A DNA stretch of 64,000 nt, from positions 72,106,001 through 72,170,000 of the forward strand of contig OZ024740.1 of assembly GCA_964016885.1 (NCBI GenBank), written 5' to 3'. This stretch comes from Eledone cirrhosa. Taxonomy: Eukaryota. Numbering within the stretch: the first letter of the stretch is position 1; the number at the start of each line of letters is the position of its first letter. Below, piece after piece: positions 5,541-56,408 of this stretch. The notes below the pieces were generated by a model. The model was not told where the DNA came from and did no database searches. It saw nothing but the letters and a program-made list of their open reading frames with translations. The translations under genes were made by a program, and so were the position numbers.

Positions 5541-6669
5541 ATTTAAGCCGTTTCAGATTTCAGTAGTTAAATATGACTTGTTCTTTCAAAGAAAAATAAA
5601 ACATAGGGGTCGTTTTAGTCTTGTTGTGGCAAAGCAATATCTCTAGTGCTGGTGCCATGATAAAATACTCATGGGATTTTGGTTGGTGTTAGGAAGGGCA
5701 CACGCAGCCGTAGAAATCGTGCCAAAAATGGAAGGAAAATATAGAATAAAATACACATGAAAAGTTATTTCACTAAACCTCTCATAATTCTCTATTTTGA
5801 TAACTGAAACACAATGGCTGTTTATTCTTGTTAGAAATATGGTTGTAAATGGGTTCAACTACATATATTCAAATAACCTCTTCAATATACAAATGGCAAT
5901 GGACAGATGCTTTTGTTTCGGACATGAAATATGTACAGGACTGTAAAGGGTTCATCTAGTTAACAAATGGCTCAGTATAGATTATCTAGAGTACAGTCAG
6001 GATTATCTGAAAATAATCCCTCATAGATTAGTGATGCTGTCTTCCTGATTGATTTATATACACATTGATAGAAAGAAAGTGTTGAAACTAGATCTAAAAT
6101 AGTCACTGAGATGTCAGCAGTGTTGATGTATTGGCTGTATGTGTTTATATTCACATTTAACCAATGGCTATTAATCTATATATTGTCATATGCAGACTCT
6201 GTCCAACCTTCAATATTTGTTTTATTTAAATTAGTTTCAGATAAGAGGCTTTAATTTCATAGACAATAAAAAATATATTCTAAGGTCTGTTCAAAGGCTC
6301 CTTCATGTAAACACGCATGGGTGCACATGTACGCATGTGTATTCATATATGCACAAGCAAACAATAACTCAATATATTGAGTTGAAAACAATGACAGTAG
6401 TGCAGGGATACTTCACATGATAGGTTTACAAGTTAAGGCATTGAAAGTCATAAGAATTACTTACAATGTAATTAACAATACACTTTTAGAAATCCATTAA
6501 TAACTTATATCCTTAAAATCTCTTTTTTAGTTTGAACATCTTTTAAAGCTGCTGTTGTTTCATTCAATGTTAATACTTGTAGAAGTATGCATTAATAACA
6601 TTAATTTGTCAGTGTCTCTATAATGGATGGTGGTTCTGCTTACTACATATCATTGAGCTACAAATTATG

Positions 6670-25530: not shown

Positions 25531-26824
25531 TCAAAATTTTATAATTAAAAAGTAGGAAATATTTAGACTTTTGTTTAAAATTTTTGAAAGTATTAAAATT
25601 GAGGACTAATTTTGTACAGTAAGGAGGGTAAAGAACTTAAACACTGTAATAGCTGTCAAACCTGGTGAACTGACTTTTCAATTACAACCCCTTGATGTTT
25701 CACTAAACAAGCCCTTTAAGGCACACATGAGAGAGGAATGGCATAATTGGATGAAGGACCCTACATGAACTGACACCAACAGGATGTATGAAGAGGCTTA
25801 CATTTTCCCAGGTAAACCAGTGGGTGAAAAACTCAGGTGCTGTGAAAACCAAGACATTTATAAAAAAAATTTTTAAATGTGGTATATAGCAACGCCCTCG
25901 ATCGCACCAAAGATGATTTTCTGTATAATGATAGCTACACAAGTGATTCTGAAAATAGCAATAACCCCGAGGAATAGGAGGAAGATGAATTTCAGGAACT
26001 AATTTAATGAAAAACCATCAAAAATATATTGCTTTGATGTCATTAGTTATAGACAAACAAGGGTAATTTTTGTATATATTTAATTTCATCAACTTAAAAC
26101 ATTTCTGACAGATTGCCTCTGTTTTTAGTTTTATATAAATAGTTATAACCCTCTCTTATCTAATCACAATGAGAGTGGGTGTATTATTTGACAAACTGGC
26201 TCCAGTTTAGATGCTTCATTTCATGCTTTTTGGTTAGGATTCCAACACTAGCTTAGTTATGTTGTTTGTTGTCATTTTGAGAATGGTTTCATTGACACAA
26301 ACACAAGTTATATTGAGGATAATAGTTGAAAGAATTCATTAAAATATTTTATTAGTATATTTTATATAATTATTGTTAATAGTAATTTTCCAAGTATACA
26401 GTAGATTAGTCACTGTTAAATATAATTTGGATATAGCCCTAGTTTTAGAGTATTTGATGTTAAACTATAAAGATGGGAAGGCATGTGGTCTAGTTGTAAG
26501 AATATTGGGCTTATGATGACAAGGTTGTGGGCTCGATTCCTGGATTGGGTGGTATGTTGTGTCCTTGGATAATATGCTTCATTTCGTATTGCTCCAGTCC
26601 ACCCAGCTGAAAAACAGAATGAGTTCTAACAGGGACCTCATCATTAAAGCATCCAAGAAACATCCTATGGGGCACAATCTTGTATGAACCCAGCTAAGTC
26701 TACATAGGTATGAAAATGAAATGAAATTTACAGTTCCTACCTGATATTTAGCAATACAATACTAACTTTAGACATGTTTCAATCTTAGTAAATTATTAGT
26801 CTATTTATCTAGCTTGGCTTCAGT

Positions 26825-26883
<59 letters not shown>

Positions 26884-26952
26884 AAAAAGAGATGAAATCG
26901 AAAATGCAACTGGAGTCTTATTTTTTTTTTAAATATATATATTTATTTGGTT

Positions 26953-26990
26953 CCTTTACCGGTTTCGCAGTTCTTCTGCTTTTCAAAAGG
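26953..26990 (-). ncRNA. Identical minimal hammerhead copy on the opposite strand
   Basis: Exact reverse complement of 27066-27103, in the left arm of the palindrome centred at 27028. Confidence 0.72.
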
Positions 26991-27065
26991 TGAGTTGAGA
27001 TGGAGGGTCTGTGGTTTTTCTCACATCTGATGTGAGAAAAACCATAGACCCTCCATCTCAACTCA

Positions 27066-27103
27066 CCTTTTGAAAAGCAGAAGAACTGCGAAACCGGTAA
27101 AGG
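27066..27103 (+). ncRNA. Minimal type I hammerhead ribozyme, U3-A8 core variant (Penelope-like type)
   Basis: CCUU | UUGAAAA | GCAG-AAGAA-CUGC | GAAA | CCGG | UA | AAGG. Stem I CCUU/AAGG, 4-bp stem II, self-complementary ACCGGU stem III, GUA cleavage triplet, AATAAA just downstream. Confidence 0.75.
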
Positions 27104-27234
27104 AACCAAATAAATATATATATTTAAAAAAAAAATAAGACTCCAGTTGCATTTTCGATTTCATCTCTTTTTCTTTATACTTTCACTCGTGTAGGACACC
27201 TCGGTTATTTTTCATTTTGTAAAAAAAGCCTCAC

Positions 27235-27284
<50 letters not shown>

Positions 27285-27286
<2 letters not shown>

Positions 27287-27689
27287 TAGCAGTGGTACCC
27301 GGCGTTGCACAGGATAATGTATTTTGGAACTCAGACCTCATCGTGTAAAAATTGCATGCCTGGACAATATGTAAAGAAAATAAACCGAATACTCTGATGG
27401 CTGGATAATCTTTAAGATTTTCCTCAATGAAGCAGGAAAAATGCAGGTTTTCACCTAATGCGGGCCCTAGGGATCAAGAAAATGAATTTTTTTTTTATGT
27501 GCATAATATGCCTTGAAATTTCGGGGGAAATCGGCTAGACGTAACATCTCAAAAAAGCCCTAAAAAGCTGAAAAAACGCAGTTTTTCACCTAGGGATCAA
27601 AAAGTTGAATTTTTTTTTATGTGCATAACACTCCCTCCCTGAAACATAAGTAATACACATGTAAAGTTTGAAAAAATCGGTTGGGTACT

Positions 27690-27721
<32 letters not shown>

Positions 27722-28187
27722 TACAAACAGATTAAAGTTTAAGCAAAGAATCGTTGCTTTCACTCTTAACGGGATCTTCTGAAACTAAAAAAACTAAAAA
27801 CATTAATCTGTGAATGTAGAAGTAAATATTTCGAAAAACGTTGCAACCGAAGGAAAGCAGGAAGACGATACTTTGGTTCGTGAAGACATTCCCTGGCAAT
27901 GAACACACAATAGCGAACATAATACGTCATCAATGTTCGTCAGAATGTCGTAATGCAGACAGCCAGGCATACAGACAGATAATATAAGAGCGCTACAGAG
28001 ATGGATAAGCGCTGCCTAAAACGCCTTAACAGAAAATTGAAAATTAAAAGCTGCAGTTAATATCTTTAGACCGCAAGGAATATATAAATGCAAGCTTGAA
28101 GCCAATTGGAGTAGAAATGTGGATTTGTATAGACTTTGCAAAAATGAGGATGGACACACAGACGACAACAGTTTTATATATATATAG
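27285..28187 (+). mobile_element. Putative non-autonomous Helitron/Helentron-like element
   Basis: Begins ACTAGC...CCCGGCGTTGCACAGG right after (AT)n, has an internal duplicated CTAGGGATCAA...TATGTGCATAA block and a CA-rich tract, and ends CAGAC...TTTTATATATATATAG. This resembles invertebrate Helitron-like repeats; assigned from recall only. Confidence 0.45.
27736..27786 (-). ncRNA. Hammerhead-like motif with non-canonical CAGAAGA core
   Basis: Minus strand reads AGUUU | CAGAAGA | UCCCGUUAAGAGU | GAAA | GCAA-CGAUUCU-UUGC | UU | AAACU. Homologous to 61735-61785. Confidence 0.5.
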
Positions 28188-34520: not shown

Positions 34521-35585
34521 TAACCATTGCAGTTGCATCTTTAAAGGAAGTACACAACATAAAACAGGGTTTCTTATTTATTTCTGCCCCGAATGGTATA
34601 GTGTAGTTTAACCCCGTTGATAGTAGACTGCCCCTGGTTTTCTGATGCTAAACTGTGTGTTTTAAAGTGTTTATATTTATCATAAAACCTTACATAGAAA
34701 TCTTATGTAAACATCTTTGTCTCAAACACCAGTTTAATAATGAGAAAGCTAGTTAAGTTAGTTATATTACTAAATCCCACTAAATTATTATTTTCAAAAT
34801 TATTTGAAAATCTTTTATTAGAAGTATGCATTTGTTTCAAATACTTAACCCTTTCATTGCCAGAGTCTTTATCTACTAAATACTGTTTACCAACATCAAA
34901 CATTTTCCGGCTGTTTTCCTTGTTAAAGCAGGGCCTTGTGGGCTCCATGAATGAGTGTAGTACATGGTCAATCATCTTGTGGCAGCCTGGCTTTTAACGG
35001 TTATATTTGGCATCATGAGTGGAAAATTTAGAAGTTGAATAATAATTGGTACGAGATATCCGTGGAGAGAACTCTATTTAAGCTACATATTGTAATCAAT
35101 TGCTAATTAAAGCTTAATATTGTTGTCAGTGGCTAATTTTCTTAAACTTTAATCAAAAATAATTTTTGAGTGCTTAACACCCTTTATCACATTTCTAATA
35201 AAGGTTCTTACATACAATTATGATGAGAGATTTTTTATATAATTATAGATGCTCTAAACAGTGTTTTACATCGAAGGTCATTTTTAGATATGTTATCAAA
35301 AGGCTTAATGAATTTATAAGATATTTTCTTTTATAAACCTTTGTGTTTCTGAGGCCCTGTATTTATAAAACCTTTTATTTATTAGCTGTGATAGGACTGG
35401 AGCCTCTATCATTAAATCCTATGAGATGTAATCTTGTAGGTGGCCAGCTAAACTTACATAGGTGTGAGCTGTAAATTTCATTAAAAATAAAAAAAAATTT
35501 GATAGCTGAACAAGCAATTATGTTTATTAACATGTTTAATTATGTGACATATTTGTAAGTGAAGAATATTTTTTGTGTTTTGTAG

Positions 35586-35712
35586 GTATCTATTCAGCCC
35601 AATAGGTAGAACACTTGGTCTCAAGGAAGAAAAAACTATTCGAATTACACATAATGAAGCATTGGAGAAAGCTTTTAAGTTACATAAAGTTCCATGTAAT
35701 GGACTTGTACAG
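35586..35712 (+). CDS. CERS: Ceramide synthase (CerS/Lass family) internal coding exon A
   Basis: Acceptor ttttgtag, donor CAG|gtaaat. 127 nt = 1 nt + 42 codons: YLFSPIGRTLGLKEEKTIRITHNEALEKAFKLHKVPCNGLVQ, resembling the CerS segment leading into the Hox-like domain (N-x-x-LEK-x-F). Splices in phase 0 to the next exon. Confidence 0.92.
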
Positions 35713-48544: not shown

Positions 48545-48793
48545 ACTCCTACAGGACTCTTTCATTTGTTTTAAATCATCAGGAATATCACTGGACGTGT
48601 GTGTGTGTGTGTGTGTGCGTGTGTGCATTTGTAGAAATGAATTTTACAAGACTAGAACTGTTTCATTCCTTTTAAATCACCAGGAATCATCACCGTTTAA
48701 CGTCCATTTTCCGATGATGATGATGATTTCTGGTGATTTAAAAGGAATGAAACAGTTCTAGTCTTGTAAAATTCATTTCTACAAATGCACACA
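48545..48793. repeat. Inverted repeat with three degenerate hammerhead-like units
   Basis: Arms about 48620-48692 and 48721-48793, flanked by (GT)n and (CA)n. Plus arm reads GAUUU|CUGGUGA|UUUAAAAGGAAU|GAAAC...GUA|AAAUU. A third, minus-strand copy at 48545-48586 keeps CUGAUGA. Confidence 0.7.
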
Positions 48794-49075
48794 CACATAC
48801 ACACTCTCACTCTCTCTAGATTTGAGAGTCTGAGAGAGGATTTTGATAATCTAGTCAATATCTAATTTTTTTTAATTGAATAAGCTGCTCTATTTCTGGT
48901 TGTATTGTATTATCCTTGTACAAAGTATTTTATATGCTTTATTTCACACAAAGGATTACACTATATAATTCTTTTATTTTTTTGTTGCTGTTCTATTTTT
49001 TCATGATACATATTTTATCAATCTCTTGTTGAATTGCTAATTTACAGGACATAAACAAGCAGTAAGCATACAAAC

Positions 49076-52639: not shown

Positions 52640-52746
52640 GGGTTAGCAAAGCAGACAGATCTAAGTATACGTCAGGTGGAAAGATGGTTCAGAGGCAGGC
52701 GGAAACTAGACAAACCAAGTGTACTGAAGAAGTTTGTGGAATCTGG
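52640..52746 (+). CDS. CERS: Ceramide synthase exon B (Hox-like domain helices 2-3)
   Basis: Long polypyrimidine tract plus tag acceptor, donor GG|gtaagg. Encodes [35 protein letters not shown](G), matching the CerS motif L-x-KQ-x-D-x-x-x-R-x-x-x-x-WFR-x-RR-x-x-DKP-x-x-L-x-KF-x-ES. Confidence 0.96.
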
Positions 52747-53823
52747 GTAAGGCTATTTATTCTTAACTTCAAAGATTAAAGCTAGACTAAGAGCAAAGAT
52801 TAAAGCTATTAAGCCCTTTTACTATCATATTTCTAAACAAAAACACTGCCTATAATTTTCAAATAAGTTTGAAAATAATCAAGAATTTGGAGGGATTTAA
52901 TAATATAAAACAAATTTTCTCATTTTCATCTGATATTTGGAGTATAACATAACAAAGGTTCTTAGATACAGTCTATATATTTTGATTCTGATGTGTGTTC
53001 CATCATAGTTGAAAAATATATGTATCCAGTGCACACACTGATTAACATTAGGAAGGACATCCAGCCAAAATAGCACATATAAGCAAAATATGGTCATCTG
53101 ACTTGTCTAATCTCAGAACACAATAACCTGTCTGATCCATGTAAGCATGGAAAATAGACATAAAACGGTGATGATAAACTCTTAGAACCAGAAGTGGATT
53201 CAGGCAGTTTGGTATCAAGAGTTAAACTACAGGACATTTTCTTGACTGTTAGTGGCTTCGTTAGGTGCAGTGCTTACTTCTATCTACAACTGTAGTAAAA
53301 TCGAGACATGACAACCTCTCTAGTGCTGATGCCATAATAAAATGAACCCAGTACACTCTGTAAAGCGGTTTGCATGAGAAAGCGCATCCACATGTAGAAA
53401 CAATGTCAAAAGTATAACATATTGAGCGAGACAAGGTCCCCTGGTTTGTTTAGGCAGACAGTAGCTTTGATTAAGTATTGACTTGGTTCGTAACACTCCA
53501 TCTAACCCAAATCAGCATGTAAAAATGTATGTAAAATAATGAACTAACTACCATTTGATATGAAGAGGAAATCTATAATGTATGAGTGTTTATTTCTAAT
53601 GAGACAAGACATGACAGATCTATAAATATCTTAACACAGTGGAGAACTGGCAGAATTGTTTGTGTCAAACAAAATACTTTCTAGTATTGGTTATGAACCT
53701 TTACATTCTGAATTCAAATCCTTTTCCAGTTAAATATATCTTTCATCCTTCTAGGGGTCAATAAAAAAAATATTGGATTTGAAATAATAATTATTTCTAG
53801 AAAGCTCTATATATCATCATTAT

Positions 53824-56357: not shown

Positions 56358-56408
56358 AAAGTCTGGTTGTGGAAACCTGTTAACTGTTGGATTGGCTACC
56401 CACATCAT
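56358..56408 (+). CDS. CERS: Ceramide synthase exon D
   Basis: Acceptor ctctttgtag, donor CAT|gtaaga. 51 nt, phase 0-0. Encodes KVWLWKPVNCWIGYPHH (CerS W-x-W-x-x-x-x-CW-x-x-YP motif). As I recall, 58-nt and 51-nt exons also occur at this position in vertebrate CERS genes. Confidence 0.95.

What the first reader, a model, noticed from the sequence alone, without database searches (positions are those of the whole stretch)
26881..27175. 295-bp palindrome encoding a U3-A8 variant hammerhead ribozyme on both strands
Seen: 147-bp arms with one mismatch and a 1-nt spacer, between two (AT)n tracts. Each arm holds CCUU-UUGAAAA-GCAG(AAGAA)CUGC-GAAA-CCGG-UA-AAGG followed by AATAAA. Established: HHR core positions 3 and 8 form a Watson-Crick tertiary pair, and U3-A8 is the compensatory alternative to C3-G8. 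Minimal HHRs with a palindromic stem III are thought to cleave as dimers. Inference: the double change implies selection for catalysis in the parent element, and a standard CUGANGA search would miss it. Read-through transcription in either direction makes the antisense arm first, which should trap the ribozyme in a long duplex that is also a good ADAR or Dicer substrate. It lies in the CerS pre-mRNA only if exon 1 is upstream of the window.
Basis: partly seen in the sequence, partly recalled or inferred. Interest (0 to 1): 0.8.

Follow-up and report, generated by a model that had tools for sequence, protein, structure and literature searches.

The report
Twin-primed Penelope retrotransposon hairpin with hammerhead
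The 295-bp palindrome is one of about 1,600 near-identical head-to-head mini-insertions of a Penelope-like retrotransposon in this genome, carrying a known kind of variant hammerhead ribozyme motif, and its fixed one-long-arm, one-short-arm shape suggests it was likely made by two target strands priming reverse transcription on a single RNA.

Summary
The palindrome and the U3-A8 minimal hammerhead motif are real, but not a singular locus. The arm is the 5' end (pseudo-LTR) of a young Penelope-like retrotransposon (RT plus GIY-YIG). The genome holds 1,612 palindromes with this centre (control 0) and 23,298 U3-A8 motifs (control 49). U3-A8 hammerheads in Penelope elements, opposite-strand pairs and head-to-head junctions are already published.

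What is more useful is the anatomy. All 28 scoreable inverted pairs of 33 have one tailed and one untailed arm. Arms of one locus share variants, and arm 5' ends pile up 30 nt after a TATA box. This points to twin priming on one uncleaved sense RNA, not to fold-back or antisense self-priming.

Catalysis is untested. There is no pile-up of arm ends at the cleavage site, and U3 can pair with A17, a possible brake. This copy lacks the TATA box and lies in the first coding intron of CerS, so it is likely a silent dsRNA hairpin. Interest 0.4.

The parts
26827..26881 (.). Left (AT)n target tract
   Evidence: family ends abut (TA)n in most copies
26876..27027 (-). Untailed arm: inverted copy of the PLE pseudo-LTR from the inferred start site to the inner UAUA priming site (q151); its last bases merge with the (TA)n tract
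26953..26990 (-). Mirror copy of the U3-A8 minimal type I hammerhead motif
27028..27029 (.). Head-to-head junction; coincides with the inferred transcription start (A of CC|AGATGTG), 30 nt after a TATA box that full pLTRs have and this copy lacks
27029..27179 (+). Tailed arm, shared part (q1-151 of the pLTR)
   Evidence: 98% identical to both pLTRs of the near-full element in L032
27066..27103 (+). U3-A8 minimal type I hammerhead motif; predicted cut after A27099; palindromic ACCGGU helix III for dimer formation
27180..27240 (+). PLE 'tail': extension present on one end only; in full elements it leads into ORF1
27241..27285 (.). Right (AT)n target tract
35584..35712 (+). Ceramide synthase coding exon 2; the palindrome lies in the ~103-kb intron before it
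   Evidence: exon 1 at G000:C1:72038472-72038666

Best explanation
The palindrome is a minimal, non-coding insertion of a Penelope-like retrotransposon's 5' end into a (TA)n tract, likely made by twin priming on one RNA. Shown: the arm is the pseudo-LTR of an RT/GIY-YIG element, and every scoreable inverted pair has one tailed and one untailed end. Inferred steps: (1) a full element is transcribed from a TATA promoter starting at the base that became the palindrome centre; (2) the endonuclease nicks both strands of (TA)n; (3) the two 3' ends prime at two UAUA sites about 62 nt apart on the same uncleaved sense RNA; (4) both cDNAs run to the RNA's 5' end and join through 1-2 nt microhomology. 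The hammerhead is the parent's conserved pLTR ribozyme, predicted to act only as a dimer, probably with protein help. In this copy it is likely inert: the TATA box is gone, and CerS read-through would fold the arms into a 146-bp duplex.
For: Parent: L032 has inverted short arm, pLTR+tail, ORF1, RT+GIY-YIG, 3' UTR, pLTR+tail, (TA)n. End rule: of 33 inverted pairs, 23 scored tailed+untailed by script, 5 more on inspection (3 damaged tails, 2 with a third neighbouring copy), 5 had only one arm scoreable, none was tailed+tailed; independent choice of two sites would give this at about 0.5^28. Same template: subfamily variants sit in both arms (115C>T in 10 of 10 loci, 138T>C in 4 of 4), and 4 palindromes share a rare N17 change in both arms among 86 such matches. 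Start site: 43 of 81 arms begin at q-3..q10; TATAAAA lies at -30 in 19 of 24 arms that extend upstream; raw reads show single arms ending at 27028 in (TA)n (175 and 203 reads). Fold-back fails where the untailed arm reaches further 5' than the tailed arm (L136 q1 vs q74, L063/64 q-902 vs q-449, L046, L155, L031). In vitro, an anole PLE protein nicks and extends both strands from two internal RT start sites that define the tail, and does not need ribozyme cleavage (PMC11167929, main text read).
Against: No RNA data for this species, so the start site is inferred from DNA. Shared variants could also come from gene conversion between arms. One pair (L138) is discordant at a subfamily marker, which fits two RNAs in that case. 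The tail is about 61 bp against the 30-40 bp reported. The anole protein primes at sites not homologous to the target, whereas here both sites carry UAUA. The ribozyme motif alone folds no better than shuffles (z -0.73), stem I is only 2 bp in two sister families (by eye), and U3-A17 pairing is predicted. The sample of pairs comes from the first 100 Mb of contig C1.
Confidence: 0.7

Rival explanations
1. Same PLE origin, but the two arms come from two RNA molecules held by a protein dimer whose subunits are fixed to different priming sites.
For: The anole PLE protein is predicted to be a dimer (PMC11167929). L138 is discordant at a subfamily marker. A dimeric hammerhead would also need two RNAs.
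Against: Markers are concordant in nearly all pairs (6 concordant and 1 discordant for 138C), and very rare N17 variants are shared by both arms in 4 loci. This needs both RNAs from one source copy, or conversion.
Confidence: 0.15
2. Same PLE origin, but one arm is a fold-back copy of the first cDNA, or the product of self-priming on an antisense transcript (the published reading), resolved by a cut at the inner TATA.
For: Explains shared variants and the one-tail rule; proposed in PMC3846280 (discussion read); in many short pairs the tailed arm reaches further 5'.
Against: A fold-back copy cannot hold sequence upstream of the cDNA end, yet untailed arms do in at least 5 loci. The window's 1-nt spacer is too tight for a priming loop. 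An antisense template gives no reason for both arms to stop at a sense TATA/initiator site.
Confidence: 0.1
3. The palindrome is a self-propagating non-autonomous unit (MITE-like or retrozyme-like) copied as a whole.
For: 13 of the first 49 loci have exactly the window's centre; other cases of DNA captured between pLTRs are published (PMC3846280, passages).
Against: Junctions vary widely; the commonest centre occurs in both orientations relative to the tail; ends are asymmetric; spacing runs continuously from 0 to kilobases; each subfamily makes its own palindromes; no head-to-tail arrays.
Confidence: 0.04
4. The palindrome is an assembly or long-read fold-back artefact.
For: No laid record spans this whole locus.
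Against: Flanks differ on the two sides; arms are asymmetric by a fixed rule at many loci; Illumina raw reads from other samples hold head-to-head joints of this family (27020 to 27097 in 121 and 150 reads, 2-3 starts).
Confidence: 0.01

Closest known systems
Minimal hammerheads of metazoan Penelope-like elements, incl. the U3-A8 variant of Schistosoma Cercyon (Cervera and de la Pena 2014, PMC4209133; parts 1-2 of 4 read)
   Same: Type I, short helix I, G10.1-C11.1, palindromic 15.2-16.2, in the pLTR; U3-A8 core (about 1,300 hits there); dual motifs on opposite strands 100-700 bp apart.
   Different: Here U3-A8 dominates the tested ACCGGU class (23,298 vs 105), helix II is 4 bp, and the cleavage base is A17, which can pair with U3.
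EN+ PLEs of the Neptune/Nematis type (Craig et al. 2021, PMC8557442; introduction and passages read)
   Same: C-terminal GIY-YIG, CX4CxxC linker, partial tandems, inverted 5'-truncated copy, tail at one end, (TA)n targets, optional frameshifted ORF1.
   Different: Tail about 61 bp; very many minimal pLTR-only palindromes; clade not fixed by an RT tree here.
PAc Poseidon element of the green anole (PMC11167929; main text read)
   Same: Two internal RT start sites bounding the tail; both strands nicked and extended; uncleaved RNA as template.
   Different: That paper does not discuss head-to-head products (0 hits for 'palindrom' and 'head-to-head'); PAc primes at non-homologous AC-rich sites and has a C3-G8 core.
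Adineta vaga Penelope inverted pLTR junctions (Arkhipova et al. 2013, PMC3846280; passages and discussion read)
   Same: Head-to-head palindromes at inverted junctions, tail on one inverted pLTR, TATA and initiator in the pLTR.
   Different: Read there as self-priming on an antisense template; the counts here favour two primings on a sense RNA.
LINE-1 twin priming (recalled, no call)
   Same: Both target strands prime on one RNA and give an inverted 5' segment joined by microhomology.
   Different: L1's two segments are mostly non-overlapping; here both copy the same 151 nt, which gives a palindrome.

Membership tests
EN+ Penelope-like element | RT followed by a C-terminal GIY-YIG endonuclease in the parent | tested here: met
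   L032 RVT_1 E 9.4e-7 (29.2 bits, just under the 29.6 cut-off), GIY-YIG 23.4 bits (cut-off 22.6); L036 GIY-YIG 30.9 bits
EN+ Penelope-like element | Two cysteines between GIY and YIG plus two histidines (CCHH) | tested here: met
   by inspection of the L032 and L036 translations
EN+ Penelope-like element | Pseudo-LTRs in partial tandem, with an inverted 5'-truncated copy | tested here: met
   L031, L032, L036
EN+ Penelope-like element | Optional tail at one end | tested here: met
   about 61 bp, longer than the 30-40 bp reported
EN+ Penelope-like element | Retained spliceosomal intron in the pLTR | tested here: inconclusive
   donor-like sites exist; RNA contigs of relatives covered only 40 bp and showed no joint
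Neptune/Nematis clades | CX2-5CxxC linker between RT and EN | tested here: met
   CX4CxxC in L031, L032, L036
Neptune/Nematis clades | Placement in an RT phylogeny | not tested
Minimal type I hammerhead (PLE type) | Core boxes with a Watson-Crick 3-8 pair | tested here: met
   U3-A8; mismatched classes at about 0.8% each
Minimal type I hammerhead (PLE type) | Helix II closed by G10.1-C11.1, with covariation across families | tested here: met
   27 distinct inter-box segments: mean best stem 3.6 vs 1.6 bp in shuffles, 14 of 27 at 4 bp or more (many are variants of one family)
Minimal type I hammerhead (PLE type) | Palindromic helix III allowing a dimer | tested here: met
   homodimer -22.5 vs 2 x -7.5 kcal/mol with the ACCGGU duplex and cross-molecule stem I
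Minimal type I hammerhead (PLE type) | Position 17 free of pairing with position 3 | tested here: inconclusive
   minimum-energy folds pair U3 with A17; analogous C3-G17 is inhibitory in minimal ribozymes (PMC3884650)
Minimal type I hammerhead (PLE type) | Self-cleavage | not testable with these tools
   no spike of arm 5' ends at the cut site (6 of 100 listed)
Rfam hammerhead families | Covariance-model match | tested here: not met
MITE (DNA transposon) | Symmetric terminal inverted repeats from a transposase-coding parent | tested here: not met
   ends asymmetric, parent codes RT/GIY-YIG
Non-LTR retrozyme | Head-to-tail tandem repeats with a hammerhead | tested here: not met
   head-to-head single unit

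The most novel reading that the evidence does not exclude
These roughly 1,600 palindromes are a genomic record that Penelope-like elements integrate by obligate twin priming at two fixed sites on a single capped, uncleaved sense RNA. That would explain inverted pLTRs and the one-sided tail together and overturn the antisense self-priming reading. The near-universal U3 with A17 would be a built-in brake that keeps the ribozyme off until the element's protein refolds it, and the by-product hairpins would be a major source of the intronic dsRNA edited in octopods.
Probability: 0.35. Interest if true: 0.7.

Novelty: new member of a known kind. Interest (0 to 1): 0.4.

Why it matters
How PLEs make their tandem and inverted ends is named as open in PMC8557442. 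This family supplies thousands of young, countable insertions whose ends, junctions and shared variants discriminate between models, and it links the 2024 in vitro result (two start sites, both strands extended) to the head-to-head structures seen in genomes. It also shows that a CUGANGA-based census would miss most hammerheads of this class in this genome (23,298 vs 105). One-step generation of perfect 150-bp hairpins in introns could help explain the high dsRNA fraction and hyper-editing reported for octopus (PMC5625713, passages); that link is inference. The single locus itself is probably a neutral insertion.

Tried and rejected
Rfam scan of 26000-28000: no hammerhead match. Cleaved RNA as template: 182 junctions have an arm starting between about q50 and q77, and by eye 6 of the 100 listed start at the predicted cut (q72) against 10 at q69, 8 at q66 and 5 at q74, so there is no spike. 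The T27045 mismatch as a two-template marker: rejected, since 48 of 49 loci are C/C and the T is best read as a private change enriched by my query. Cap-derived extra G: 7 of 12 non-templated letters before the start are G, 2 of them ambiguous; a weak hint only. Expression: no RNA holder listed; RNA-guessed contigs of related organisms covered only L032:6919-6960, so nothing on splicing, editing or start sites. PLE linkage of the sister U3-A8 families: tblastn on 52 loci hit only 3, possibly separate insertions, so it is not established. Earlier findings: three look-ups empty. Literature: searches for Penelope + twin priming + head-to-head + pLTR + tail, octopus + Penelope + hammerhead and one search found no paper on this family or on twin priming in PLEs; the library lacks most subscription papers. 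Lunse et al. 2016 on dimeric PLE hammerheads is not held; it may already test U3-A8 or A17 variants. Supplements of the papers were not read, and Repbase was not available.

Full report
OBSERVATION. The inverted repeat is as described: arms 26881-27027 and 27029-27175, one mismatch (G27011/T27045), one spacer base. A descriptor requiring a paired 3-8 position, stems I and II and a palindromic helix III finds exactly two hits in the 64-kb window, the two mirror copies. Rfam has no hammerhead among its 50 matches. Below, q numbers count from 27029 = q1.

WHAT IT IS. A DNA search with the right arm plus extension scored 40 of 445 candidates and returned copies 94-100% identical. In L005 and L008 the extension leads straight into an ORF. 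L032 holds a near-complete element: a short inverted arm, pLTR with tail, ORF1, an overlapping second frame with RT and C-terminal GIY-YIG, a 3' UTR of about 1 kb, a second pLTR with tail, then (TA)n. Pfam gives RVT_1 at E 9.4e-7, just under its cut-off, and GIY-YIG above its cut-off. A CX4CxxC linker and the CCHH pattern are visible in the translation; PMC8557442 (introduction and passages) ties these, the (TA)n target, the inverted 5' copy and the one-sided tail to PLEs, and the linker to Neptune/Nematis. The inspected copies carry stops or frameshifts. The host is an octopod by inference from its closest ceramide-synthase relatives.

ABUNDANCE. A pattern spanning the centre finds 1,612 palindromes against 0 for the control; 13 of the first 49 distinct loci have the window's exact centre. 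The U3-A8 motif with ACCGGU occurs 23,298 times (control 49), C3-G8 105 times (control 157), U3-G8 182 (control 30) and C3-A8 196 (control 21). By eye 83 of the first 100 U3-A8 matches belong to this family and 17 to about four other families with different helix II sequences.

THE RIBOZYME. For: the search pattern did not require helix II, yet 27 distinct segments pair to a mean 3.6 bp against 1.6 in shuffles (many are variants of one family), with different complementary sequences in different families. Mismatched 3-8 classes are at decay level, except one small C3-A8 family seen. A homodimer folds into the expected two-molecule form at -22.5 against 2 x -7.5 kcal/mol. U3-A8 is a known natural covariation (PMC3088659, section 8) and was reported in Schistosoma PLEs with about 1,300 hits, along with dual motifs on opposite strands (PMC4209133). 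Against: the monomer folds no better than shuffles (z -0.73); stem I is 2 bp in two sister families (by eye); such minimal motifs cleave poorly in vitro. Position 17 is A in almost all copies (only 86 otherwise exact copies differ), and U3-A17 pairs in the predicted folds; the analogous C3-G17 pair is the presumed cause of a 300-fold or greater loss in minimal ribozymes (PMC3884650, passages). Arm 5' ends show no spike at the cut site (6 of 100 listed, by eye), in line with the anole result that uncleaved RNA is the template. Selection in the parent is likely (about 0.85); activity of this copy is unlikely.

HOW THE PALINDROME ARISES. (a) 3' ends. Among 81 arms at 59 loci taken in genome order (two arms counted twice), 41 end at q213 and 24 at q151; both sites carry UAUA, matching the (TA)n target. 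Of 33 inverted pairs, 28 were scoreable and all have one tailed and one untailed arm: 23 by script, 3 with damaged tails and 2 with a third neighbouring copy on inspection; 5 had one arm unscoreable. (b) 5' ends. 43 of 81 arms begin at q-3..q10, 24 extend further upstream, 13 begin after q10, 1 hit a locus edge. TATAAAA lies at -30 from that point in 19 of 24 upstream-extending arms, so the centre is most simply the transcription start. Raw RAD reads from other samples show arms ending at 27028 in (TA)n (175 and 203 reads), arms continuing into the upstream pLTR (425 and 397) and head-to-head joints (121 and 150 reads from 2-3 starts). (c) Template. In 29 of 33 palindromes analysed (4 skipped by the script), arms differ less within loci (3.8%) than between (5.8%), and subfamily variants are shared by both arms (115C>T 10 of 10, 138T>C 4 of 4). 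Four palindromes share a rare N17 variant. One pair, L138, is discordant. Gene conversion is not excluded. (d) Junctions show 1-2 nt microhomology and vary. (e) In at least five loci the untailed arm reaches further 5' than the tailed one, which a fold-back copy of the tailed cDNA cannot do, while a fold-back of the untailed cDNA cannot make a tail. Together with the in vitro finding that a PLE protein extends both strands from two internal sites bounding the tail (PMC11167929), the best model is two primers on one sense RNA, each occupying one site. When priming uses the sites near the RNA's 5' end, both cDNAs stop at the start site and the product is this mini-palindrome; priming at the downstream pLTR gives the long forms. 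These steps are inferred. The published reading is self-priming on an antisense template (PMC3846280).

CONTEXT. Ceramide synthase coding exon 1 lies at G000:C1:72038472-72038666 (+) and exon 2 at window 35584-35712, so the palindrome is in a ~103-kb intron. On the pre-mRNA the antisense arm comes first, and the unit folds at -254.8 kcal/mol. The TATA box is absent from this copy, so outward transcription is not expected unless internal promoter elements suffice, as reported for Drosophila Penelope (PMC2377424, passages). Editing is plausible: octopus has an exceptionally high dsRNA fraction and hyper-editing, and lizard Penelope is heavily edited (PMC5625713, passages). No RNA of this species was available to test it.

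VERDICT. Real, explained, and a new member of a known kind: PLE pseudo-LTR with a published type of variant hammerhead. PLE origin about 0.97; single-RNA twin priming about 0.7; ribozyme active at this locus below 0.1. The added value is the countable evidence on PLE integration and the U3-A17 question, which searches did not find in the held library. Interest 0.4.

Noticed in passing
L031, L032, L036, L038 at the ORF1/ORF2 overlap (L032 about 5590-5680, minus strand): The two frames overlap in the -1 sense in 4 of 4 copies, with a U UUU UUA slippery-type heptamer at the overlap; a programmed frameshift is likely. PMC8557442 Fig. 1 legend mentions an optional frameshifted ORF1.
   Followed up: partly
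window 48603-48810: A second head-to-head hairpin (90-nt arms, 94%) within (TG)n/(CA)n, with a decayed hammerhead-like box order; probably the same kind of product from another PLE family.
   Followed up: partly
window 27286-27320: Directly right of the (AT)n tract begins CTAG followed by a short GC-rich inverted motif, resembling a Helitron 3' end on the minus strand (motif recalled, no call).
   Followed up: no
L043, L084, L171, L181, L186: Sister hammerhead families, U3-A8 and C3-G8, also form their own palindromes, so the mechanism may be general in this genome.
   Followed up: partly
G000:C1:348863669-348911675: Six C3-A8 copies of the motif at about 9.6-kb spacing, a tandem segmental array.
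   Followed up: no
G000:C1:91259722 and at least ten more places: A small family with an apparent C3-A8 mismatch core and a distinct purine/pyrimidine helix II; may use another register.
   Followed up: no
L070, L174-L177, L181, L182, L186, L187: Related families with a U10.1-U11.1 helix II closure occur with both U3-A8 and C3-G8 cores, a natural pair for testing the swap; the U-U closure is noted as tolerated in PMC3088659.
   Followed up: partly
window 35584-35712, 52640-52747, from 55202, 56358-56408: Four ceramide synthase exons on the + strand; the gene spans at least 183 kb.
   Followed up: yes
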